NCBI GenBank assembly: GCA_002763265.1
Contig: PEZQ01000007.1
Coordinates: forward strand, 63,368-127,367
Direction of reading: 5' to 3'
DNA length: 64,000 nucleotides
Origin: an archaeon CG10_big_fil_rev_8_21_14_0_10_43_11
GTDB lineage: Archaea; Nanobdellota; Nanobdellia; PEZQ01
Shown here: positions 48,739-59,013 of the stretch, piece by piece
Position numbering within the stretch: the stretch's first letter is position 1
Layout of the letters: each line of letters begins with the position of its first letter
Program-made: the position numbers and the translations under genes
Notes under the pieces: model-generated
What the model saw: the letters and a program-made list of their open reading frames with translations, nothing else
Told to the model about the DNA's origin: nothing
The model's database searches: none

Positions 48739-49320
48739 TTAAAATGATACTTTTGGCGCACCCTTCTCAGCTTCAGGCAGGTTGAACACGTCTTTTTGCG
48801 CAAACCCAAATAGTTTTGCAAACATGTTTGATGGAAACATTTGCACTTTATTGTTGTACATAAGCACTGTGTCGTTGTAGAACTGTCTTGCATACGCGAG
48901 TTTATCCTCAGTTTCTGCAAGTTGTGCTTGCAAGCTCACAAAATTCTCATTTGCACGAAGCTTTGGATAATTCTCTGCAACCGCAAACAACGTCTTAAGC
49001 GCAGAGGTTAACATATTATTTGCACTCAACTTATCCTCAGTTGATTGTGCAGACATCATGCTTGCACGCGCTTTTGTGACATTTTCAAACACACTTTTTT
49101 CATGCTTTGCATACCCCTTAACGGTCTCAACCAGATTTGGAATAAGGTCTGCTCGACGCTTGAGCTGCACGTTTATTTGACCAAGTGAATTCTCAACACG
49201 ATTTTTGAGCACGACAAGTGAATTGTACACGCTCCACGCCACAATGACAAGGAGCACAATTAACCCAATGGCAATAGCGCCAATCCACTCTAACATACTA
49301 TCACACAAGACCGAACACAC
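48739..49320 (-). CDS. lemA: LemA-family protein
   Basis: N-terminal TM then [44 protein letters not shown], characteristic of LemA. Confidence 0.8.
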
Positions 49321-49350: not shown

Positions 49351-49782
49351 TTATATAAAACGGGTATATATCTTCGTGGTAAATTGTATAACTATCTCTG
49401 CATACTCTTTATCGAACTGTTTGCCATAATACAAAATACCATTTCTAAAATAGCGCAATTTATTCAAGAGGCGAACTTCTGTTTCAGAAAACTTAAGTTT
49501 TCTCGAAAAGGCAACTTCCGCTTCATGAGCGCCATGCCCTACACTTGAAAACCCTTGTTCATACATCTTTGCTCGTATTAAAAACATAATAATATTATAA
49601 CAGTATTCAACATAATCATTTGCATTCGTATCATCTATGCCAAGTCTATCTACCATGTTCTGTAAAATGAAGAATTTTCGCTTCGCTTCTGACAACATAC
49701 TTCGTGCTCGCTCTACATCGTTACTTCCTTTTTTTATAACCCCCTCTTCAAGAAATTCTTCAAAAGACTTTACTATTCTCAT
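49351..49782 (-). CDS. HEPN-like / nucleotidyltransferase substrate-binding protein (putative toxin partner)
   Basis: 143-aa all-helical ORF overlapping by 4 nt the upstream minimal nucleotidyltransferase gene; family inferred mostly from context. Confidence 0.4.
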   Translation of the reverse strand: MRIVKSFEEFLEEGVIKKGSNDVERARSMLSEAKRKFFILQNMVDRLGIDDTNANDYVEYCYNIIMFLIRAKMYEQGFSSVGHGAHEAEVAFSRKLKFSETEVRLLNKLRYFRNGILYYGKQFDKEYAEIVIQFTTKIYTRFI

Positions 49783-50318
49783 AACTCAACACCCCCCTCT
49801 AAAACAATGCCATTAAGAAGATTATTTTTAAGATGTTTGTGTATAGATTTCCAAGAATCATAAAAATTAATGTTTATCATCTTGTGTAATTCTTTTTCGT
49901 ATGCCGCAACATTAAGGTATTTTTCTTTTCTTCCAATCACTGCAATGTCAATGTCTGATCCTTTTGTATCTTCTCCTCTTGCATAACTACCAAAGAGAAT
50001 AATCGTTGCACCTGCAAGTTTTTCCTCAAGAAAATCAGATAAACCAGAAACATAGACCAATCTAAGATTTTCAACACGTTTAAGTTGAATCGCTCGTGGA
50101 TAGTTTATATTAAAAGACACGAAATGTGCAGTTCTAGTCTTTTCTCGCTTCGCGAGATTCTCATCTAAAAGCCGATGTACTGCTTTAGAAACAGCAGTAG
50201 GAGAAACGGATAATAAACCAGCTAGTTCTCGCTGACTTAATTTTTCTCCCGCCCGCTTGCACAACAAAGAAAATAATGCTGTTTCAAGTCGTGTAAACTC
50301 TTGTTTATACTTATCCAT
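49779..50318 (-). CDS. Minimal nucleotidyltransferase (MNT) with N-terminal HTH
   Basis: GSYARGEDTKGSDIDIAV (GS...DxD NTase motif); N-terminal HTH LSQRELAGLLSVSPTAVSKAVHRL. Confidence 0.7.
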   Translation of the reverse strand: MDKYKQEFTRLETALFSLLCKRAGEKLSQRELAGLLSVSPTAVSKAVHRLLDENLAKREKTRTAHFVSFNINYPRAIQLKRVENLRLVYVSGLSDFLEEKLAGATIILFGSYARGEDTKGSDIDIAVIGRKEKYLNVAAYEKELHKMININFYDSWKSIHKHLKNNLLNGIVLEGGVEL

Positions 50319-50654
50319 TTTAGTTTAAATGTGTCTATTTTAGTTTATATATGTTTTGATAGACAACCACTCAAAAAAAGAGAATTTTAAAAACTATGAG
50401 CAGGTGATAAAACACTATAAAAATCTGGACTGAAATTGGTTACGTTGCATACTACACTCAAAATCTCAGAAAGGACAAACAATTATTCAAACAAAAAAAA
50501 TTATAGACTCACAAATAAAAGCAAGCAGGGCGCTATGTAACAAACGCGTTACGCATAAAAATTATAAACCACAAGCACGAAACTATTTGCACTCAATCAA
50601 TCTCGTATAACCACCCCACCATTTAACAAAAAAAAAGCAAAAACTATTTATAAT

Positions 50655-50670
50655 GTTCGTATATACGAAC
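50655..50670. promoter_or_regulatory. Perfect 16-bp palindrome GTTCGTATATACGAAC, candidate DtxR-family operator
   Basis: Seen directly; ends 6 nt upstream of the likely DtxR start (ATG 50677). Confidence 0.45.
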
Positions 50671-50676
50671 AAAGTA

Positions 50677-51084
50677 ATGACTACTGAGACGCGTGAAGAC
50701 TACATTCGCGCCATCTGGAAACTCAAAGAAAAAAACGGCGCGGTCAAATCAAAAGACGTGGCAGAAATGACGGGTCTTGCAAAATCAACGATTTCTGAGC
50801 GCCTGCGCGGCCTCAAAGATGAGGGGCTTGTCACTTTCAAACCCTACACCGACATAACACTCACCAAAAAAGGAGAAGCGCTTGCAGCAGAGCTCACGTA
50901 CAAGCACAGGCTCATTGAAGTTTTTTTACACAAAACACTGGGCATGCCCATCAACAAGATTCATGACGAAGCAAACCGGCTTGAACACGCGTTTTCTGAC
51001 GAGTCAATCACGCATCTTGCGCGCTTTCTTGGCAACCCAAAAAAAGACCCGCACGGCAGCCCCCTACGAGGCAAAAAACCATGA
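50677..51084 (+). CDS. DtxR-family metal-dependent transcriptional repressor (MntR/SirR/TroR-like)
   Basis: TETREDYIRAIWKL...VKSKDVAEMTGLAKSTISERLRGLKDEGLV (wHTH) plus metal-binding helical domain. ORF track starts at 50653; internal Met 50677 preferred. Confidence 0.8.
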   Translation: MTTETREDYIRAIWKLKEKNGAVKSKDVAEMTGLAKSTISERLRGLKDEGLVTFKPYTDITLTKKGEALAAELTYKHRLIEVFLHKTLGMPINKIHDEANRLEHAFSDESITHLARFLGNPKKDPHGSPLRGKKP

Positions 51085-51992
51085 ACAAGCTCATCATCGC
51101 TCTGTTTGGGCTCCTGCTTTTGGGCGGGTGCACCGCGCAAACTACGACTGATGACGCGCGCATACGCGTCGTGACCACGATTGGCATGATTACTGACATC
51201 GTCCAAAACGTGGGCGGCGACTACGTACGCGTGACGGGTCTTATGGGTCCTGGCGTTGACCCGCACCTCTACAAAACAAGTGAAGGAGACGTGCGCGCCA
51301 TGAGCAGCACAGACATCATCTTCTACAACGGACTGCATCTGGAATCAAAAATGGGCGACGTGATTGAAGGCATGGAACAGCTCACGCACGTTGTTGCCGT
51401 TACTGACTACCTTAACAAAAGTGAACTGCTTGATTTTCCCGCGTTTCCCGGACAATACGACCCGCACGTCTGGTTTAACGTGAAATACTGGATGAACGCA
51501 ACACAAAAAGTCCGCGATGAACTCATCAGATACGACCCTGCACACGCGCAGTACTACAAAGACAACGCACAAACCTATCAGGCAGGTCTTGAAGCGCTTG
51601 ACGCGTACGTGACTGCCCAGATTCAGCGTGTACCCGAACAACAGCGCGTACTCATCACAGCCCATGACGCGTTTAGTTATTTTGGGCGCGAATACGGCCT
51701 TGACGTGCGCGGACTCCAAGGCATCAGCACTGAAGCTCAGGCAGGCACAGGCGACGTGCAAGAACTTGTTGACTTCATTGTTTTGCAAAAAATAAAAGCC
51801 ATCTTCATTGAATCATCTGTTCCTGAACGAAACATAAAAGCAGTGGAAGAAGCAGTTGAGGCAAAAGGCTGGAACGTGTCAATTGGCGGCGAACTCTTCT
51901 CTGACGCCATGGGTGACGCGGGCACGTTTGAAGGCACGTACATAGGCATGGTCACGCACAACGTGGATACCATCGTGGGCGCACTCTCGTGA
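51081..51992 (+). CDS. Metal ABC transporter substrate-binding lipoprotein (TroA/ZnuA/MntC family)
   Basis: Lipoprotein signal MNKLIIALFGLLLLGGC; cluster-9 SBP length and His/Asp-rich metal-site regions. Confidence 0.8.
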   Translation: MNKLIIALFGLLLLGGCTAQTTTDDARIRVVTTIGMITDIVQNVGGDYVRVTGLMGPGVDPHLYKTSEGDVRAMSSTDIIFYNGLHLESKMGDVIEGMEQLTHVVAVTDYLNKSELLDFPAFPGQYDPHVWFNVKYWMNATQKVRDELIRYDPAHAQYYKDNAQTYQAGLEALDAYVTAQIQRVPEQQRVLITAHDAFSYFGREYGLDVRGLQGISTEAQAGTGDVQELVDFIVLQKIKAIFIESSVPERNIKAVEEAVEAKGWNVSIGGELFSDAMGDAGTFEGTYIGMVTHNVDTIVGALS

Positions 51993-52735
51993 TTAGTATG
52001 AAAAAAGAATTAGCACTCAGCGTAGACGACTTAACCGTTGCGTACAACGAAAAACCAGTACTTTGGGACATTGACGCGCACGTGCCTCAAGGCGTGCTGC
52101 TTGCCATTGTCGGACCAAACGGGGCGGGAAAAACAACGTTTATCAAAAGCGTGCTTGGACTTATTAAACCCGCAGCGGGCACGGTCACGTTTTTTGCCAA
52201 ACCCTACCAGGCAAAACGAAAAAAAATAGCGTACGTGCCTCAGCGAACCAGCGTTGACTGGGATTTTCCCGCAACCGTGCTTGACGTGGTGCTTATGGGA
52301 ACGTACGGCCAGCTTGGCTGGATTCGCCGTGCTGGAAAAAAACAAAAACAACACGCATATCAAAGCCTTGAGCGCGTTGGCATGAGTAAATTTGCAGACC
52401 GCCACATCAGCCAACTCTCAGGCGGCCAACAACAACGCGTCTTTCTTGCGCGCGCACTTGTTCAAGACGCTGACGTGTATCTCATGGACGAACCCTTTGC
52501 AGGCGTTGACACAACCACTGAACAAGCAATTCTCGCACTCTTGCAAAACCTGCGAAAAAAAGGAAAAACCGTGATTGTTGTGCACCACGACTTGCAGACC
52601 GTGAAAAAATATTTCGACTGGGTCATGCTTCTTAACGTGCGAAAAATCGGTTTTGGACCAGTTGAAAGCGTGATGACAAACGAGAACTTGAAAAAAACGT
52701 ACGGGGGCACGGCTGCATTTCTAGAAAACGAGTGA
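51989..52735 (+). CDS. Metal ABC transporter ATP-binding protein
   Basis: Walker A GPNGAGKTT, signature LSGGQQQRV, Walker B DVYLMDEP. Confidence 0.85.
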   Translation: MISMKKELALSVDDLTVAYNEKPVLWDIDAHVPQGVLLAIVGPNGAGKTTFIKSVLGLIKPAAGTVTFFAKPYQAKRKKIAYVPQRTSVDWDFPATVLDVVLMGTYGQLGWIRRAGKKQKQHAYQSLERVGMSKFADRHISQLSGGQQQRVFLARALVQDADVYLMDEPFAGVDTTTEQAILALLQNLRKKGKTVIVVHHDLQTVKKYFDWVMLLNVRKIGFGPVESVMTNENLKKTYGGTAAFLENE

Positions 52736-52744
52736 AACCACACC

Positions 52745-53887
52745 ATGCTTGAACTCTTGTACAACCTTTTTTTTGATTACACACTTCGAAATGTGGCGCT
52801 TGGCTCTGCCACTATTGGGGTGCTCTCAGGCGTGCTTGGTAGCTTTGCTGTGCTTCGAAAAAAAAGCCTGCTTGGAGACGCAATCTCGCACGCAGCCCTT
52901 CCTGGCATTGCACTCGCATTTCTTTTTACCCTTAGCAAAAATTCGCTTGTACTCCTTTTTGGCGCCATGCTCGCCGGTCTTGCAGGCGCAAGCATCGTGC
53001 TTATCGTGCACAAAAACAGCAAGATAAGTGAAGACGCCGCGCTTGGCATTGTCCTCTCCTCATTTTTTGGGCTGGGTATTTTTCTTCTCACCATTATACA
53101 ACGCATTGCAAGCGCAAAAAAAGCAGGTCTTGAAACCTTCCTGTTTGGCAACGCATCAACCATGCTTGCAAGCGACGTGTACACCCTGCTCTTTTTTGCA
53201 GGCCTCGCGCTCGCGCTGACCGCGCTTTTTTGGAAAGAGTTCAAGCTCGTTTCCTTTGATTACGCGTACGCTAAAACCCTGGGGTTTCACACTCTTGGCA
53301 TTGAAGCGCTCATTACTGCGCTTATCGTGCTTGCTATTGTGATTGGACTCCAAACTGTTGGCGTCGTGCTTATGAGCGCGTTTATTATTGCGCCTGCAGT
53401 TGCAGCACGCCAATGGACTAAAACCCTCTTTGGCATGGTCACACTCTCAGCACTGTTTGGCGCCGTCTCAGGCGTGAGTGGCGCCATGATAAGCAGCGCT
53501 CAGCGAAACGTGCCAACAGGACCCGTTATCGTAATTGTCATGAGTTGCATTGTCTTTTTTTCCCTGCTCTTTTCTCCAACACGCGGCATTGTAAGCGAAA
53601 AAATCAAAGACGCAAAAAAACGAAAAAACCTTGACGTCAAAGGCGTGCTCATAGACGTGTTCTTACTCTCACACAATCACGCGAAACGAACCCACCCTCA
53701 CCACGTGAGCGCGATTCAGGCAGTGTCGCACGCGTCAGCAAAAAACAGTCTTGACGTGCTTGAACAACTCGGGCTTGTAACACAAGACGCGCACGAGTAT
53801 TGGCGCCTTACTCCTGCTGGCGTGCTGGAAGCAGAAAAAATACTGCAAAAAAAAGGAGGTGGTCCCTCACATGTTAGTGCAAGCTGA
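52745..53887 (+). CDS. Metal ABC transporter permease (ABC-3 family) with C-terminal winged-helix-like extension
   Basis: About 270-aa polytopic permease core followed by about 100-aa soluble tail (...LDVLEQLGLVTQDAHEYWRLTPAGVLEA...). Confidence 0.75.
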   Translation: MLELLYNLFFDYTLRNVALGSATIGVLSGVLGSFAVLRKKSLLGDAISHAALPGIALAFLFTLSKNSLVLLFGAMLAGLAGASIVLIVHKNSKISEDAALGIVLSSFFGLGIFLLTIIQRIASAKKAGLETFLFGNASTMLASDVYTLLFFAGLALALTALFWKEFKLVSFDYAYAKTLGFHTLGIEALITALIVLAIVIGLQTVGVVLMSAFIIAPAVAARQWTKTLFGMVTLSALFGAVSGVSGAMISSAQRNVPTGPVIVIVMSCIVFFSLLFSPTRGIVSEKIKDAKKRKNLDVKGVLIDVFLLSHNHAKRTHPHHVSAIQAVSHASAKNSLDVLEQLGLVTQDAHEYWRLTPAGVLEAEKILQKKGGGPSHVSAS

Positions 53888-54992
53888 AATCATCCTGCTT
53901 GCAAGCGTAGTCGCAAGCGCGTGCGCCATTCCCGGTGTGTTCTTGGTATTGCGAAAAATGAGCTTACTAAGCGACGCAATAGGCCATTCTATTCTTTTAG
54001 GAATCGTGCTCGGGTTTTTTATCTCACGCACCCTCAACTCACCGCTCCTCATTATAGGCGCAGCACTCATGGGCGTGTTCTCTGTTTTTTTAACCCAAAA
54101 AATCAAGAACACCGGCAGAGTTAAAGAAGACGCTTCAATTGGACTGGTGTTTCCCTTTCTCTTCTCGCTTGGCGTTATTCTTATCACGCGATTTGCAAGC
54201 AGAGTGCACATTGACACTGACGCAGTCCTGCTTGGAGAAATTGGGCTTGCACCATTCAACCGGCTCGTGCTTGGAGGCATTGACCTTGGACCCGTTTCAT
54301 TATGGATTATGAGCACAGTACTCGCGCTCAACGTGCTCTATGTTATCACATTCTACAAAGAGCTCAAGCTTGTAAGTTTTGACCAGGGACTTGCAAAAAG
54401 CCTTGGCTTCTCAACAGGATTTATCCATTACAGTCTTATGACTTTAGTAAGCATCACCACAGTAAGCGCGTTTGACTCAGTTGGCGCCGTGCTCGTTGTT
54501 GCCCTTATCATCGCGCCAGCTGCGAGCGCCTACCTTCTTGTTAATAGTGTGTCATCAATGCTTTTTTTGAGCGCGGTTTTTGGTGTGCTCTCAGCAGTCA
54601 CGGGCTACGCGCTTGCAAGCATGTTTAACGCATCTATCGCAGGCGCTATCGCAGTCATGACGGGCGTGTTCTTTTTGTGCGCATTTCTTTTCTCACCCCG
54701 CCACGGTGCGTTTTTCAGGCTTGCAAAGAAACGGGGGCAGAAAAAACTGTTTTCACTCCACATGCTGCTTGTGCACTTGCTTGACCATGAAAAAACACGT
54801 GATGAACCAGTGGAGAACACGATTGCAAACGCAGTAGAGCACATGAAATGGGCGCCTGCTTTTTCGCGCGAACTCGTCTTGCTTGGCACAAAAAAAGACT
54901 GGCTCTACGAAAAAAAACAGCGCCTCTACCTCACCTCCACGGGCAGAAGCGTTGCAAAACAGGTCATGCAAACGACAAGAATGGAGTATTAA
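53859..54992 (+). CDS. Metal ABC transporter permease (ABC-3 family) with C-terminal winged-helix-like extension
   Basis: Second permease paralogue; tail ...LVLLGTKKDWLYEKKQRLYLTSTGRSVAKQV... Confidence 0.75.
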   Translation: MVPHMLVQAEIILLASVVASACAIPGVFLVLRKMSLLSDAIGHSILLGIVLGFFISRTLNSPLLIIGAALMGVFSVFLTQKIKNTGRVKEDASIGLVFPFLFSLGVILITRFASRVHIDTDAVLLGEIGLAPFNRLVLGGIDLGPVSLWIMSTVLALNVLYVITFYKELKLVSFDQGLAKSLGFSTGFIHYSLMTLVSITTVSAFDSVGAVLVVALIIAPAASAYLLVNSVSSMLFLSAVFGVLSAVTGYALASMFNASIAGAIAVMTGVFFLCAFLFSPRHGAFFRLAKKRGQKKLFSLHMLLVHLLDHEKTRDEPVENTIANAVEHMKWAPAFSRELVLLGTKKDWLYEKKQRLYLTSTGRSVAKQVMQTTRMEY

Positions 54993-56278
54993 GCAATAAA
55001 CTGCATGCCCTTAAACAAAATAAGCGGAGCAATAAATGCTGATTTTTGAATTGGCTCACTGCCGATTGCGTTGATTTTCTTGATTGTATCAAACACGTTT
55101 CCGCTTATCATGCCTGACGAAATCGCGTGCGTTACCTCACCATTCTCAATTGCATACGCTTTTGCAAGCTCATTGCTAAAATCGCCTGACACGGGATTGC
55201 TCATGTGCGCGCCAGACACGCTTGACACGAGCACGCCTTTTTTAATTCCTGAAATAATATCGCTGCGCGATGCTGTTCCTCGCGCGATTACCACATTTGA
55301 TGCACCAATTGCAGGACGAGCAGTAAGTGATGAACAATTGCCTGTTGATTTTCTCTTTGCCAGATTTGCAGTGTAATAATCGTAGAGTCCTGACTTGAGC
55401 ACGCCTTTTTCAATAAGCACCGTCTTTTTTGCGCCAACACCTTCACTGTCAGACTCGTACGAGCCAAGACCATACTCAATTGTGGCATCATCAACAATGG
55501 AGAGTTTTGGTGACGCAACTTTTTCGCCAATCTTATGCGAAAAAAACGAATCTCCTTTGTGCAGAGCATACCCGTTGAGCGCTGAAACAAGGGTTTCACC
55601 AATCACATCCTGCAACGCCTCATGCTCCAAAACAACCGGGTACGTGCCGGTTTGGATTGGCTTTGGGTTTTGACTCTTGAGACATTCATCAATTGCTTCT
55701 TTTGCCACTTTTCCCGGGTTTGGTTGTTTTACAAACATATGACCTGACGAGCCAGTAATGTTGTTTTTGATAACATCCAGGCTCATTGAAACACCTGCAC
55801 GTATGTGCGAGTTTGACACGCCATTTGAATTTGCAACCAAGACCCGATGATGGCCTGTGCCCAGCCAAAGACCATGCATGCTCACCTTTGCGTGTTTTAC
55901 CATATCAAGCATGAGTTTTGCGTGCGCACCCAAATCCTCAACACTCATATCAAGGAGCGCAGGCTCAAAGAGCTTGACTGACGCTTTTGTGTCCTCAACA
56001 GGCAACCCCTTGAAGTGCCGGTCTTTTTCTGAGATGCGCGCAAGCTTTGTTGCCTGTTTGAGCGTTTCCTCCCACGTATCAGTGCGCGACGTGGTTGCAA
56101 CACCAGTTCTGCCATCAGGAAGCGTGACGCGAATAATCATGCGCTTTGAGTGCGAAAAATGAGGATAGAGAAGTTTATCTTTTTCATATACAAGCGACGT
56201 TTGCGTGCTCTCAGTAATACCCAGTTCTATATTATTGCGTTTATCACGTTTAATGATTTTATTACTCAGCTCTTCCAC
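54989..56278 (-). CDS. PmbA/TldE-family protein (TldD/PmbA metalloprotease partner)
   Basis: TldD/PmbA-fold protein immediately downstream of TldD. ORF track start 56395 overlaps tldD by 134 nt; GTG at 56278 (or TTG at 56281) just after the TldD stop is the more plausible start. Confidence 0.65.
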   Translation of the reverse strand: MEELSNKIIKRDKRNNIELGITESTQTSLVYEKDKLLYPHFSHSKRMIIRVTLPDGRTGVATTSRTDTWEETLKQATKLARISEKDRHFKGLPVEDTKASVKLFEPALLDMSVEDLGAHAKLMLDMVKHAKVSMHGLWLGTGHHRVLVANSNGVSNSHIRAGVSMSLDVIKNNITGSSGHMFVKQPNPGKVAKEAIDECLKSQNPKPIQTGTYPVVLEHEALQDVIGETLVSALNGYALHKGDSFFSHKIGEKVASPKLSIVDDATIEYGLGSYESDSEGVGAKKTVLIEKGVLKSGLYDYYTANLAKRKSTGNCSSLTARPAIGASNVVIARGTASRSDIISGIKKGVLVSSVSGAHMSNPVSGDFSNELAKAYAIENGEVTHAISSGMISGNVFDTIKKINAIGSEPIQKSAFIAPLILFKGMQFIA

Positions 56279-57635
56279 CAACAACCACCTTACTAATACG
56301 CATGTGCGGCGCAAACTCGCCAACAGGCACGCTTTGACCTGCTTTTCCGCAAAAACCTCCTTCTGAGAGCACACTCTTTTTGCCAATACCATCAATAAGT
56401 TGCAGAGTTTTGAGAATGTTTCCTGTCAAACTCACATCGCGAAGCGGTGTCGTTATCTCGCCATCCTTGATGAGCCATGCTTCTTGCGCGCCAAACACGA
56501 ATTTTCCCTCAGTGGGAATGACTTGGCCGCCACTTGAACCTGCCGCGTACACTCCCTCTTTTATGTCACGTATGAGTTCGTCTTTTGTGAACGTTCCCGG
56601 TCTAAGAATAGACGTGCTCATGCGAGGAATGGGAAAATGATAGACTGACTGGCTTCTGCCATTACCGGTTGGCTCTGCTTTCATTTTTGATGCGGTATCA
56701 AGTGAGTGCAAATAACCCGTGAGCACGCCATCCTTGATAAGCGGAGTCGTGGTTTTTTTCACCCCCTCACTATCATACTGGTACGAGCCAAAACTATGCT
56801 GGACCAGGCCGTCGCTAAAACTCACCAAAGGGCTTGCAACCGCTTTGCCCATCATGCCTTTCATCACTGACGCACCCTCCAAAATTGCATCAGCCTCGCA
56901 GGCGTGGCCTACTGCTTCATGAAAAAACACGCCAGAAAGTGCGCCATCACACACAAGCGGAAGCGTTTTTGCCGGCGCGTGTTTTGCATGCAATAAGCGA
57001 AGCGCCATAGCAACCGTATCTTGGGCAAGACCAACAATGCCCTTGTCATAAAACACTTCCAAACCCCCCGTGCGCGCATCACCTTTGTGCGCGCGCTGCA
57101 TAACATCTCCTTCGCGCGCAAGCGCGCTTACGCTATACATGGTTTTGTAATCAGTCTCAAAGAGCATACTTCCTTCACTGTCATAAAACTCGTTTTTTGA
57201 TTTCACACTTGCAAGCGTTGCAAACACGCGTCTGACGCGTTTGTCAACACCTTTTGTTGTTTTTGAAAGTAAGAGTACGCGTTTGAGTTGCTTTTCAAGG
57301 TCTTCGCCAAACGGGTTTTTCTCAGGAGTAACGGTTACGCTGTCTTTAACGCGCTGTTTTTTAATATGCACGTTTGCGCCGCGAACGCGGCCAAGCTTGA
57401 GTGCTTCACGAAACGCGTCTTGAAGGTTTTTCGTGTTTTGGGATGATACCATAACCCATGAGCCCTTATACACGCCGCGAACCCACAATGCTTTTGCATT
57501 ATGTGCACCAAGCGATTTTACGGACTGGTCTTCAACTGCAAGGTTTTGCGCAATTGAATCAGAAATAAGCATATCCCAATAATCAAACTCGTTTGCAATG
57601 CGTGGAATCTTCATCAAAACAATACTATGGTTCAA
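56262..57635 (-). CDS. tldD: TldD-family metalloprotease
   Basis: 457 aa with HEAVGH zinc-binding motif and C-terminal Gly-rich region typical of TldD. Confidence 0.8.
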   Translation of the reverse strand: MNHSIVLMKIPRIANEFDYWDMLISDSIAQNLAVEDQSVKSLGAHNAKALWVRGVYKGSWVMVSSQNTKNLQDAFREALKLGRVRGANVHIKKQRVKDSVTVTPEKNPFGEDLEKQLKRVLLLSKTTKGVDKRVRRVFATLASVKSKNEFYDSEGSMLFETDYKTMYSVSALAREGDVMQRAHKGDARTGGLEVFYDKGIVGLAQDTVAMALRLLHAKHAPAKTLPLVCDGALSGVFFHEAVGHACEADAILEGASVMKGMMGKAVASPLVSFSDGLVQHSFGSYQYDSEGVKKTTTPLIKDGVLTGYLHSLDTASKMKAEPTGNGRSQSVYHFPIPRMSTSILRPGTFTKDELIRDIKEGVYAAGSSGGQVIPTEGKFVFGAQEAWLIKDGEITTPLRDVSLTGNILKTLQLIDGIGKKSVLSEGGFCGKAGQSVPVGEFAPHMRISKVVVGGRAE

Positions 57636-57648
57636 ACGTTATTAAGGT

Positions 57649-59013
57649 TTACTTCACCACGCTGCTAATCTTCTTGCTCACATCCTGACTGTTTTTTAGC
57701 GCGTGCTTAACCACTTCAGAAATAGTCTTAACCGGAATAATTCTTATGCCCTGCAATTCCTTTTTTGAGAGCACCACATCTTTTTCGTTCATAGCAGGAA
57801 TAATCACCGTTTTGTATCCTGCGCGCACTGCTGCTTCTATTTTTTCGTTCACGCCGCCAACAGGCATGACCTCACCAGAAATTGACAAGCTGCCGGTCAT
57901 TGCTATTTCCTGTTTGACTGGCAATTTTTCAAGAGAAGAAATAATCGCGGTTGCAATGCTAATTGACGCGCTATCGCCTTCAACACCCTCATACGTTTGC
58001 AAGAACTGGATGTGAATATCATAATTCTCAATATTTTTTGACGAGTACTGTTTGATGACTGCGCTCACGTTTTGCACTGCCTCTTTTGCAATATCTCCAA
58101 GCCGTCCGGTTGCAATAATTTGTGACTCGCTCTTGCCAAACGAGCGGGCAACAACCGCTTCAATAGGCAGCACGATTCCTGAATGCGTTTCAGCACTGCC
58201 CAACACGGCAAGACCATTCACGCGGCCAACTTCTGCACCCTTGTTTCGAAGGATTTGATAGTCTTTCTTTTCAGTGGTGAATTTCTCAGTCATTTGCTGT
58301 TCAAGAGAACGCGCATACGTTTTTGCAGAGGTCACATCTTCTGGCTGTACATGTGTATGCTTTTTTTCGCGCGCAATATCACCTGCAACACGGATAAGAC
58401 CGCCAAGGTCGCGAAGTTTGAGCGTGAGATGTCCTTTTCTTCCTGCACGGCGTCGTGATTCATTAACAATTTCAAGCACAGCATCACGCGTGAAATGAGG
58501 AATTTTTGTGTCCTTAACTACTTCCTGAGCTACAAATCTAGCGAGGTATTCGCGGTTTTCTGGCGTGTCTGGCATCGTGTCATTCATGAATACTTCATAT
58601 CCATATCCGCGGATACGCGAGCGAAGCGCAGGATGCATTTTCTGCGTGGTTTCAGCATTTCCTGCAGCAACAAGAATAAAATCGCAGGGAGCGGGCTCGG
58701 TTTGAATCATGGCGCCGCTTGAACGTTCGCTTCTTCCAGTGATTGTCATTCTCTTTTCCTGCATGGCAGTCAAGAGTTCAATTTGCGTTTTTGGGCTCAT
58801 AGTTGCGATTTCATCAACAAACAAGACGCCCTTGTTTGCTTTGTGAATCGCGCCTGCAACCACTAACTCGTGGGCGGGCGTACCAAGACCGCCAGAATTA
58901 GTGGCTAACACGTCGCTTGCGATAACATTACCCGATTCAGTAGTAATATTATAGATATGCTCATCAACATCAATTTCACGAATTGATGTAATCTTATCCT
59001 CTTTCAAACTCAT
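57649..59013 (-). CDS. lonB: Split LonB protease, C-terminal half: intein C-fragment (39 aa) fused to LonB C-extein (Walker B and Ser-Lys protease domain)
   Basis: Begins [39 protein letters not shown] (intein blocks F/G, terminal Asn) then [10 protein letters not shown]...VLFVDEI (Walker B)...GDSASISIA (catalytic Ser region). Confidence 0.8.
58897..59013 (-). other. Intein C-terminal fragment (IntC, 39 aa) of split LonB intein
   Basis: Own ATG; block F-like [18 protein letters not shown]; terminal Asn followed by +1 Ser of the extein; same size class as known IntC fragments. Confidence 0.7.

What the first reader, a model, noticed from the sequence alone, without database searches (positions are those of the whole stretch)
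52745..54992. Both metal-ABC permeases carry about 100-aa C-terminal winged-helix-like extensions
ABC-3 permeases are normally about 270-290 aa; here both are about 380 aa, with soluble tails having wHTH-like patterns (...LEQLGLV...YWRLTPAG... and ...YLTSTGRSVA...). This may be a permease-fused regulatory or DNA-binding module working with the separate DtxR regulator encoded at the operon head.
Basis: partly seen in the sequence, partly recalled or inferred. Interest (0 to 1): 0.45.

Follow-up and report, generated by a model that had tools for sequence, protein, structure and literature searches.

The report
Repressor-derived tails on metal-importer permeases
Both membrane subunits of this Tro-type metal ABC importer end in a cytoplasmic winged-helix domain that descends from a fused DtxR-type repressor, has lost the repressor's metal-binding half and carries its own conserved histidine cluster; the feature is widespread in bacteria, undescribed in the papers I could search, and may be a built-in metal sensor.

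Summary
Permease 1 (52745-53887, 380 aa) and permease 2 (53859-54992, 377 aa) each have an ABC-3 domain that ends near residue 277, followed by a soluble tail of about 100 aa.

Both tails are related to the DNA-binding domain of DtxR/MntR repressors. A bridging homologue, P0270, is a permease-1 orthologue whose tail is a complete DtxR, as in Chlamydia YtgC-YtgR.

The tails here lack the DtxR dimerisation and metal-binding domain. Instead they carry nearly invariant clusters: H312/H317/H319 in tail 1, and H306/H310/E311/E319/H328 in tail 2.

Their winged-helix cores are net acidic, and their "recognition helices" tolerate acidic residues, unlike those of the free DtxRs in these operons. This weakens the DNA-binding reading.

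The architecture is not an archaeal speciality. It recurs in at least 580 genome loci, and the 80 best come from more than 15 bacterial phyla. The binding protein is about 60% identical to Treponema TroA, and Treponema TroD (367 aa) has the same length as permease 2.

My preferred reading is inferred, not shown: a built-in cytoplasmic metal sensor, analogous to the ZnuC zinc-sensing domain. This is a new variant of a known kind, of moderate interest.

The parts
50645..50671 (.). TATA-like TTTATAA followed by a perfect 18-bp palindrome, TGTTCGTATATACGAACA. Candidate promoter and operator of the operon.
   Evidence: one exact match in the window, 0.04 expected by chance. It overlaps the first ATG of the regulator ORF; a second in-frame ATG at 50677 is the likelier start. 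Its function is inferred only.
50653..51084 (+). Free DtxR/MntR-type regulator (143 aa from the first ATG; two domains, no SH3 domain).
   Evidence: PF01325 E 5.9e-14 and PF02742 E 1.7e-25. MntR/DtxR NCBIfam models match below their cut-offs.
51081..51992 (+). TroA-like substrate-binding protein (ZnuA family).
   Evidence: PF01297 E 8.4e-80. T. pallidum TroA (1toa) E 1.2e-92, far better than any other solved binding protein.
51989..52735 (+). ABC ATPase (248 aa) with no extra C-terminal sensor domain.
   Evidence: ABC_tran over residues 27-171. The sequence contains no cysteine, so the ZnuC CxxxHxCC zinc-sensing motif (PMC12236471) is absent.
52745..53572 (+). Permease 1 (TroC-like) transmembrane domain, residues 1-276.
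   Evidence: ABC-3 residues 12-276; aligns to PsaC 7kyp, including the GDAISHA metal-site motif (D45/H49).
53573..53887 (+). Tail 1, residues 277-380. A basic helix continues from the last TM and is followed by a winged-helix core (residues 299-371, nt 53639-53857). The His cluster H312/H317/H319, plus the window-specific H310 and H320, lies at nt 53672-53704.
53859..54692 (+). Permease 2 (TroD-like) transmembrane domain, residues 1-278. The start is uncertain: GTG at 53859 or ATG at 53871. Either overlaps the end of permease 1.
   Evidence: ABC-3 residues 11-278; aligns to PsaC; homologues align from residue 8 onward.
54693..54992 (+). Tail 2, residues 279-377. A basic helix is followed by a winged-helix core (residues 301-374, nt 54759-54980). 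The His/Glu cluster H306, H310, E311, E319, (N324), H328 and W331 lies at nt 54774-54851.

Best explanation
What it is (shown). The region is a Tro-type metal ABC importer operon: DtxR/MntR regulator, TroA-like binding protein, ATPase, and two permeases.

Each permease ends in a cytoplasmic tail of about 100 residues. A basic helix continues from the last TM helix and is followed by a winged-helix (wH) domain.

The wH domains descend from the N-terminal DNA-binding domain of a DtxR-family repressor that was fused to the permease, as in Chlamydia YtgC-YtgR. Here the repressor's dimerisation and metal-binding half is missing. Each wH carries its own nearly invariant His/Glu cluster at the end of helix 1 and in strand 1.

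How it most likely works (inferred). The tails no longer act as DNA binders; transcriptional control rests with the separate DtxR and its candidate operator. Instead, the two tails reach about 50 A down beside the ATPase dimer and bind the imported metal through their His/Glu clusters when the cytoplasm is replete. That binding restrains the transporter, giving post-translational feedback inhibition.

I put identity and descent at about 0.9 and the sensor mechanism at about 0.4.
For: - Tail boundaries and solubility.
- Tail 2: hhalign to tail 1 gives 97.3%, E 2e-11. In a profile search of the PDB, most of the 29 weak hits are MntR/IdeR/DtxR.
- DtxR descent: hhalign of tail 1 against the operon DtxR wHTH gives 93.4%, E 2.5e-7. 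P0270 is a permease-1 orthologue (42% identity, with the alignment running through into the wH). Its tail is a complete DtxR: PF02742 E 2e-25 and 33% identity over 131 aa to the window's DtxR, E 2e-20.
- A core-only tail-1 HMM scores P0270 at 35 bits and free DtxRs at a median of 9.7 bits, against a maximum of 7.9 bits in 772 shuffles.
- Conserved clusters in 74 paired loci: tail 1 H312 70/74, H317 51/74, H319 72/74; tail 2 H306 74/74, H310 71/74, E311 63/74, E319 74/74, H324 63/74, H328 66/74. Overall tail identity is only about 30%.
- Against DNA binding: acidic wH cores and relaxed helix-3 charge compared with free DtxRs.
- Coupling hints: clade-specific changes at cluster positions occur jointly in both tails. 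In L081, where permease 1 keeps a full DtxR, both clusters are largely absent.
- Precedent within the same transporter family: the ZnuC zinc-sensing domain locks ZnuBC when zinc is bound (PMC12236471). The window's ATPase lacks that domain.
- The short cytoplasmic C-terminal helix of B. anthracis MntC is essential for activity (PMC8487065).
Against: - No metal binding, tail-tail contact or tail-ATPase contact was shown.
- H317 is replaced by Arg or Tyr in about a quarter of homologues. The window has N324 where 86% of homologues have His.
- The covariation signals are probably single events within clades.
- Tail 1 is absent in L069 and, judging by length, in Treponema TroC (298-304 aa), so it is dispensable in some lineages.
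- An acidic wH does not strictly exclude DNA binding; P0270's bona fide DtxR wH is itself net neutral.
- The tail-2 fold rests on remote homology plus a low-confidence model (pLDDT 52).
Confidence: 0.42

Rival explanations
1. DNA-binding module. The tails bind operator DNA, either tethered to the membrane or after proteolytic release, and co-regulate the operon with the free DtxR.
For: - The tails are homologous to the DtxR wHTH.
- The full-length fusion YtgC-YtgR is cleaved and represses transcription (PMC5599777, PMC7755916).
- Helix 2, helix 3 and the wing keep canonical lengths.
- A palindrome lies at the operon head.
Against: - There is no dimerisation or metal-binding domain.
- The wH cores are net acidic. 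Helix 3 has a mean charge of +0.5 and +0.36, with about 25% of homologues at -1 or below, against +1.68 (never -1 or below) in free DtxRs. The window's tails are at -1 and 0.
- A complete free DtxR is already encoded in the operon.
- The most conserved residues are His/Glu at the helix-1/strand-1 end, not in the recognition helix.
Confidence: 0.15
2. Structural remnant. The wH domains are what is left of an ancient repressor fusion and are kept as a scaffold that stabilises TMD-NBD assembly. The conserved His/Glu/Trp residues serve folding or packing, not sensing.
For: - The short cytoplasmic C-terminal helix of B. anthracis MntC is needed for activity (PMC8487065).
- The tail-1 family occurs only on these permeases.
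- W353 and W331 and the hydrophobic core positions are as conserved as the His residues.
- Tail 1 can be lost (L069; Treponema TroC at 298-304 aa, PMC2628430).
Against: Invariant clusters of three to six His/Glu residues on a cytoplasmic domain of a metal importer are unusual for a purely structural role. Both clusters are largely lost exactly where a full DtxR metal site is present, although that is a single case.
Confidence: 0.25
3. Docking platform. The tails recruit a soluble partner to the transporter, such as the free DtxR/TroR, a metallochaperone or a protease. This would couple transport to regulation by sequestration, as MalK does with MalT.
Against: DtxR proteins dimerise through domain 2, which the tails lack. 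No conserved third partner gene appears in the loci. There is no direct evidence.
Confidence: 0.1

Closest known systems
Treponema pallidum / T. denticola TroABCD-TroR metal importer
   Same: - The binding protein is about 60% identical to TroA (E 1e-92).
- The gene set is the same: binding protein, ATPase, two different permeases and a DtxR-like regulator.
- TroD is 366-367 aa (PMC2628430, Table 1), the length of permease 2 with its tail.
- T. pallidum TroR (153 aa) also lacks the SH3 domain, like the window's regulator.
- Both have an 18-bp dyad operator.
   Different: - Treponema TroC is only 298-304 aa, so judging by length it has no tail 1; here both permeases are long.
- The regulator gene is at the head of the operon rather than the end.
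- The host is a DPANN archaeon.
- The papers I could read on the Tro system do not comment on the TroD tail.
Chlamydia trachomatis YtgC-YtgR (permease-repressor fusion)
   Same: - An ABC-3 permease of the TroC type is fused at its cytoplasmic C-terminus to a DtxR-family domain (PMC5599777).
- A metagenomic permease-1 orthologue with this full architecture (P0270) matches the tail-1 profile at E 4.5e-12 (35 bits for the core alone).
   Different: - YtgR is a complete repressor (about 28-30 kDa as the cleaved product) with conserved DtxR metal ligands. It is cleaved off and binds DNA.
- The tails here keep only the wH, lack PF02742, carry a different His/Glu cluster, occur on both permeases, and coexist with a free DtxR.
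E. coli ZnuC C-terminal zinc-sensing domain
   Same: It belongs to the same transporter family (ABC-3 permease ZnuB; one search hits 9oko). It is an extra cytoplasmic domain with conserved metal ligands that locks the importer when the metal is plentiful (PMC12236471).
   Different: It sits on the ATPase, not the permeases. It has an unrelated fold and motif (CxxxHxCC). Its function is demonstrated experimentally, whereas the function proposed here is only inferred.
DtxR/MntR/IdeR metalloregulators (N-terminal wHTH domain)
   Same: The fold and sequence pattern match: helix 1 (..VL.DLY.L), helix 3 (..L..L...GLV), wing (W.LT..G..A) and helix 4.
   Different: The tails have no dimerisation or metal-binding domain, are membrane-anchored, have an acidic rather than basic surface, and carry a new His/Glu cluster.
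S. pneumoniae PsaBC (solved Mn importer, 7kyp)
   Same: The transmembrane domain is homologous, with the conserved Asp/His translocation site (PMC8346216).
   Different: PsaC is a homodimer of 282-290 aa with only a short C-terminal extension and no wH tail.

Membership tests
ABC-3 / cluster A-I metal ABC importer permeases (TroCD, PsaC, ZnuB) | ABC-3 transmembrane domain (PF00950) | tested here: met
   E 1.7e-65 and 2.3e-45, both well above the cut-off.
ABC-3 / cluster A-I metal ABC importer permeases (TroCD, PsaC, ZnuB) | Conserved Asp/His pair in the translocation pathway (PsaC D46/H50, ZnuB D36/H40) | tested here: met
   Permease 1 has LLGDAISHAALPG (D45 and H49 invariant in A1), aligned to PsaC GDAISHA. 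Permease 2 has LLSDAIGHSILLG.
ABC-3 / cluster A-I metal ABC importer permeases (TroCD, PsaC, ZnuB) | Operon with a ZnuA/TroA-type binding protein and an ABC ATPase | tested here: met
   The same gene order is seen in the related loci wherever they are complete.
YtgC-YtgR-type permease-repressor fusion | C-terminal DtxR-like wHTH fused to an ABC-3 permease | tested here: met
   Remote but consistent homology, bridged by P0270.
YtgC-YtgR-type permease-repressor fusion | DtxR dimerisation and metal-binding domain (PF02742) with the canonical metal ligands | tested here: not met
   There is no PF02742 hit in either permease. The tails end about 15-20 residues after the wing. Only 1 of 270 collected homologues has the domain.
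YtgC-YtgR-type permease-repressor fusion | Proteolytic release and metal-dependent operator binding | not testable with these tools
   This needs immunoblots and gel-shift assays.
DtxR/MntR family transcription factors | Basic recognition helix able to contact DNA | tested here: inconclusive
   Helix-3 net charge is -1 (tail 1) and 0 (tail 2) in the window. Family means are +0.5 and +0.36, against +1.68 for free DtxRs. This suggests loss of DNA binding but does not prove it.
DtxR/MntR family transcription factors | Homodimer formed through domain 2 | tested here: not met
   Domain 2 is absent.
ABC importers with a built-in cytoplasmic substrate sensor (ZnuC ZSD, MetN C2, ModC) | Extra cytoplasmic domain on a transporter subunit | tested here: met
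   The domain sits on the permeases, however, not on the ATPase.
ABC importers with a built-in cytoplasmic substrate sensor (ZnuC ZSD, MetN C2, ModC) | Conserved ligand-binding residues in that domain | tested here: inconclusive
   Nearly invariant His/Glu clusters are present. Metal binding itself was not tested.
ABC importers with a built-in cytoplasmic substrate sensor (ZnuC ZSD, MetN C2, ModC) | ZnuC-type CxxxHxCC motif at the ATPase C-terminus | tested here: not met
   The ATPase sequence contains no cysteine.
ABC importers with a built-in cytoplasmic substrate sensor (ZnuC ZSD, MetN C2, ModC) | Substrate-dependent inhibition of transport (trans-inhibition) | not testable with these tools
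   This needs transport assays.

The most novel reading that the evidence does not exclude
The DNA-binding domain of a DtxR repressor has been turned into an allosteric regulator of the transporter. On this reading, the two winged-helix tails of TroC and TroD together form a composite cytoplasmic metal site from their His/Glu clusters beneath or beside the ATPase dimer, and shut the importer when the metal is replete. That would be a second, independently evolved built-in sensor in the ABC-3 importer family, placed on the membrane subunits.
Probability: 0.3. Interest if true: 0.65.

Novelty: new variant of a known kind. Interest (0 to 1): 0.42.

Why it matters
- High-affinity Mn/Fe/Zn ABC importers are central to metal homeostasis and to virulence. 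How they are switched off after translation was unknown until the ZnuC zinc sensor was reported in 2025.
- If the Tro-type tails are metal sensors, a large and phylogenetically broad group of importers has its own feedback switch, built from a recycled repressor domain. The group includes the Treponema Tro system, judging by the length of TroD.
- The finding also places Chlamydia's unusual YtgC-YtgR fusion in an evolutionary series: full repressor fusion, degenerate fusion (P0255), and winged-helix-only tails.
- For annotation, it defines two uncatalogued domain families at the C-termini of proteins now labelled only "metal ABC transporter permease".

Tried and rejected
- Tail-only searches of the word-indexed protein database found nothing. 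The full-length search and the exhaustive profile search were needed instead.
- The afdb50 fold library was unavailable.
- Neither window tail has a significant Pfam hit on its own. The best is WH_AprA for tail 2, at E 0.0098 on the full-length protein and 0.00088 on the tail alone.
- The resemblance of the tail-2 motif E..V.HL.EHL.W to the MntR metal-binding helix (E99/E102/H103) scores only 4.4 bits. I rejected it as evidence.
- The primary YtgR papers (PMC3387080, PMC3209234) are not held, so the statement that fusions occur in 11 phyla is cited second-hand from PMC5599777.
- Literature searches for a described winged-helix tail on TroD/MntC-type permeases found nothing.
- I considered and rejected the idea that the tails are an archaeal invention: the 80 best genome loci are all bacterial.
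- I also rejected an ORF-fusion artefact, because the architecture is conserved across phyla.
Full report
**1. The observation**

The region 50653-54992 holds five co-directional, tightly packed genes:
- a DtxR/MntR-type regulator (PF01325 and PF02742);
- a ZnuA/TroA-type binding protein;
- an ABC ATPase;
- two ABC-3 permeases of 380 and 377 aa.

In both permeases the ABC-3 domain ends at residue 276-278. The solved relatives PsaC (282-290 aa) and ZnuB (260 aa) align no further than residues 288-291. The last 100 or so residues of each protein are therefore extra.

These tails have no hydrophobic segment. Each starts with a very basic stretch, with mean net charge +5.9 and +4.4 over 22 residues across homologues.

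**2. The fold of the tails**

Neither window tail has a significant Pfam hit on its own, and tail-only word searches found nothing. A full-length search with permease 1 showed that the 120 best hits are all 357-408 aa and align over 94-99% of the query. That gave an alignment of tails (A2).

With A2, AlphaFold2 predicts tail 1 with pLDDT above 90 over residues 20-90. The order of elements is:
- a 33-residue helix continuing from the membrane;
- a loop and a short strand;
- two helices;
- a beta-hairpin;
- a final helix.

For tail 2 I took 75 homologues from related genome loci.
- Its profile matches the tail-1 profile at 97.3% probability, E 2e-11.
- Most of its 29 weak PDB hits are MntR, IdeR or DtxR, aligned on their wHTH.

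Both tails are therefore winged helices. The evidence is strong for tail 1 and rests on homology for tail 2.

**3. Cytoplasmic location**

Four points support a cytoplasmic position:
- the positive-inside signal;
- the use of a C-terminal GFP fusion on PsaC (PMC8346216), which by established knowledge reports a cytoplasmic C-terminus;
- the modelling and truncation of the cytoplasmic C-terminal helix of B. anthracis MntC (PMC8487065);
- the fact that the homologous position in P0270 and YtgC holds a cytoplasmic repressor.

**4. Where the tails come from**

hhalign of tail 1 against the DtxR proteins encoded in these same operons gives 93.4%, E 2.5e-7 over 72 columns, matching helix 1, helix 3, the wing and helix 4. 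Tail 2 gives 79.9%.

An exhaustive profile search of 1.84 billion representative proteins found only 358 clusters. As far as the listed hits show, all are C-termini of ABC-3 permeases.

One of them, P0270 (431 aa), is a permease-1 orthologue: 42% identity, with the alignment running uninterrupted from the membrane domain into the winged helix. Its tail is a complete DtxR, with PF02742 at E 2e-25 and 33% identity over 131 residues to the window's own regulator, E 2e-20.

A tail-1 HMM stripped of the membrane-proximal residues gave these scores:

| Target | Score (bits) |
|---|---|
| P0270 tail | 35 |
| P0255 tail (a degenerate intermediate) | 37 |
| Free DtxRs | median 9.7 |
| 772 shuffled controls | maximum 7.9 |

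P0270 is the architecture known from Chlamydia YtgC-YtgR, where the repressor half is cleaved off and represses the ytg and trp operons (PMC5599777, PMC7755916). The tails in the window are the winged-helix half of such a fusion without the dimerisation and metal-binding half. Only 1 of the 270 collected homologues retains that half.

**5. What system this is**

The binding protein is about 60% identical to Treponema pallidum TroA (E 1.2e-92), far closer than to any other solved binding protein.

In Treponema, TroC is 298-304 aa and TroD is 366-367 aa (PMC2628430, Table 1). By length, TroD has tail 2 and TroC has no tail 1.

A scan of species-representative genomes found at least 580 related loci. 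The 80 best come from Chloroflexota, Poribacteria, Spirochaetia, Leptospirales, Ignavibacteria, Actinomycetota (including Varibaculum timonense), Gemmatimonadota, Omnitrophota, Rhodothermales, Flavobacteriaceae (including Aequorivita aquimaris), Tissierella, Pelagibacterium and others.

Wherever the contig allows, these loci show the order binding protein, ATPase, long permease 1, long permease 2. A DtxR gene is adjacent in about 35 of them. L069 is an exception, with a 303-aa permease 1.

The window itself matches a protein annotated from "archaeon CG10_big_fil_rev_8_21_14_0_10_43_11". Apart from one Woesearchaeota hit, its named relatives are bacterial. The operon's GC content (0.48-0.53) is above the window mean of about 0.42. 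Acquisition from bacteria is plausible but not shown.

**6. What the tails do**

Against an overall tail identity of about 30%, a few polar residues are nearly invariant in 74 paired loci:

| Tail | Residue | Conserved in |
|---|---|---|
| 1 | H312 | 70/74 |
| 1 | H317 | 51/74 |
| 1 | H319 | 72/74 |
| 2 | H306 | 74/74 |
| 2 | H310 | 71/74 |
| 2 | E311 | 63/74 |
| 2 | E319 | 74/74 |
| 2 | H324 (N in the window) | 63/74 |
| 2 | H328 | 66/74 |

They lie at the end of helix 1 and in strand 1. In the tail-1 model this region is predicted with pLDDT above 90, so it is not a floppy His-rich loop.

By contrast, the putative recognition helix is variable and often acidic:

| Region | Tail 1 | Tail 2 | Free operon DtxRs |
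|---|---|---|---|
| Helix 3, mean net charge | +0.5 | +0.36 | +1.68 (SD 0.53) |
| Helix 3, share at -1 or below | about 25% | about 25% | none |
| Helix 3 in the window | -1 | 0 | |
| Whole wH core, mean net charge | -1.2 | -2.5 | +2.85 |

Two hints link the two clusters.
- Clade-specific substitutions occur jointly in both tails. In Omnitrophota, H312 to N/Q goes with H310 to A. In Flavobacteriia, D304 to F goes with deletion of E311. In Tissierellia and Varibaculum, D304N goes with H324T.
- In L081, where permease 1 keeps a full DtxR, that protein lacks the tail-1 cluster, and its partner permease keeps only H306 and W331 of the tail-2 cluster.

Each of these is probably a single evolutionary event, so they are hints and not proof.

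A close functional precedent exists in the same transporter family. [quoted passage not shown] The window's ATPase has no such domain and no cysteine at all.

I therefore favour a built-in cytoplasmic metal sensor that restrains the importer, at a probability of about 0.4. The alternatives are:
- a structural remnant (0.25);
- a DNA-binding or releasable co-repressor (0.15);
- a docking site for a partner protein (0.1).

None of the mechanistic steps is shown. What is shown is the fold, the descent, the location, the conservation pattern and the loss of DtxR-like electrostatics.

**7. Novelty**

Permease-DtxR fusions are known (YtgC-YtgR), as are ABC importers with built-in sensors.

A winged-helix-only tail with its own His/Glu cluster, present on both permeases of Tro-type importers, is not covered by any Pfam or NCBIfam model that reached significance here. 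I found no description of it in the searchable literature.

The window's copy is an ordinary member of a very large family. The family-level feature is a new variant of a known kind. Interest is moderate: a specialist would find the exaptation hypothesis worth testing, and it is directly testable.

Noticed in passing
window 50645-50677: A perfect 18-bp palindrome, TGTTCGTATATACGAACA (50654-50671), follows a TATA-like TTTATAA directly and overlaps the first ATG of the DtxR ORF. A second in-frame ATG lies at 50677. The site is unique in the window (0.04 expected by chance). It is a candidate operator for the DtxR-like regulator and suggests the gene really starts at 50677.
   Followed up: partly
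window 51000-55000 compared with the whole window: The operon's GC content (0.48-0.53) is above the window mean of about 0.42, and 20-36 kb is at 0.33-0.37. The nearest relatives of the operon proteins are mostly bacterial. Horizontal acquisition by the DPANN archaeon is possible.
   Followed up: partly
L081:116-2526: In this metagenomic contig the permease-1 orthologue (P0270) carries a complete DtxR (wHTH plus PF02742) and lacks the tail-1 His cluster. The downstream 372-aa permease 2 keeps only H306 and W331 of the tail-2 cluster.
   Followed up: partly
L017, L029, L032 (Omnitrophota); L068, L073-L079 (Flavobacteriia); L023, L049, L056, L062 (Tissierellia/Varibaculum): Clade-specific substitutions at the conserved cluster positions occur jointly in the two tails: H312 to N/Q with H310 to A, D304 to F with loss of E311, and D304N with H324T. 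This suggests the two clusters are functionally coupled, although each case is probably a single event.
   Followed up: partly
L069:5001-7123: Permease 1 is only 303 aa, with no tail and only 99 nt before the next gene, while permease 2 is 370 aa. This is the arrangement that the Treponema TroC and TroD lengths imply.
   Followed up: no
L073-L079 permease 2 (Flavobacteriaceae): Tail 2 carries about 25 further C-terminal residues, ending in a conserved ...FFLFRG.
   Followed up: no
window 49351-50318 (- strand): A wHTH plus nucleotidyltransferase protein (PF01909, MarR-like N-terminus) overlaps by 4 nt with a 143-aa ORF that has no Pfam hit. Together they look like an MNT/HEPN-type pair. LemA lies next to them (48739-49320).
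   Followed up: partly
window 54989-59013 (- strand): A PmbA/TldD metallopeptidase pair, as called, overlaps by 134 nt (56262-56395), so the start of the downstream gene is probably later. The stop codon of the PmbA-like gene overlaps the stop codon of permease 2 (convergent genes with no spacer). An archaeal LonB ORF follows and looks short at its N-terminus (454 aa).
   Followed up: no
P0255 (440 aa): This permease-1 homologue has a winged helix followed by about 45 residues (RKLYWEVYQQHYQELPEVEIDY...). The stretch resembles a decayed DtxR domain 2 but has no PF02742 hit. It may be an intermediate between the full fusion and the winged-helix-only tail.
   Followed up: partly
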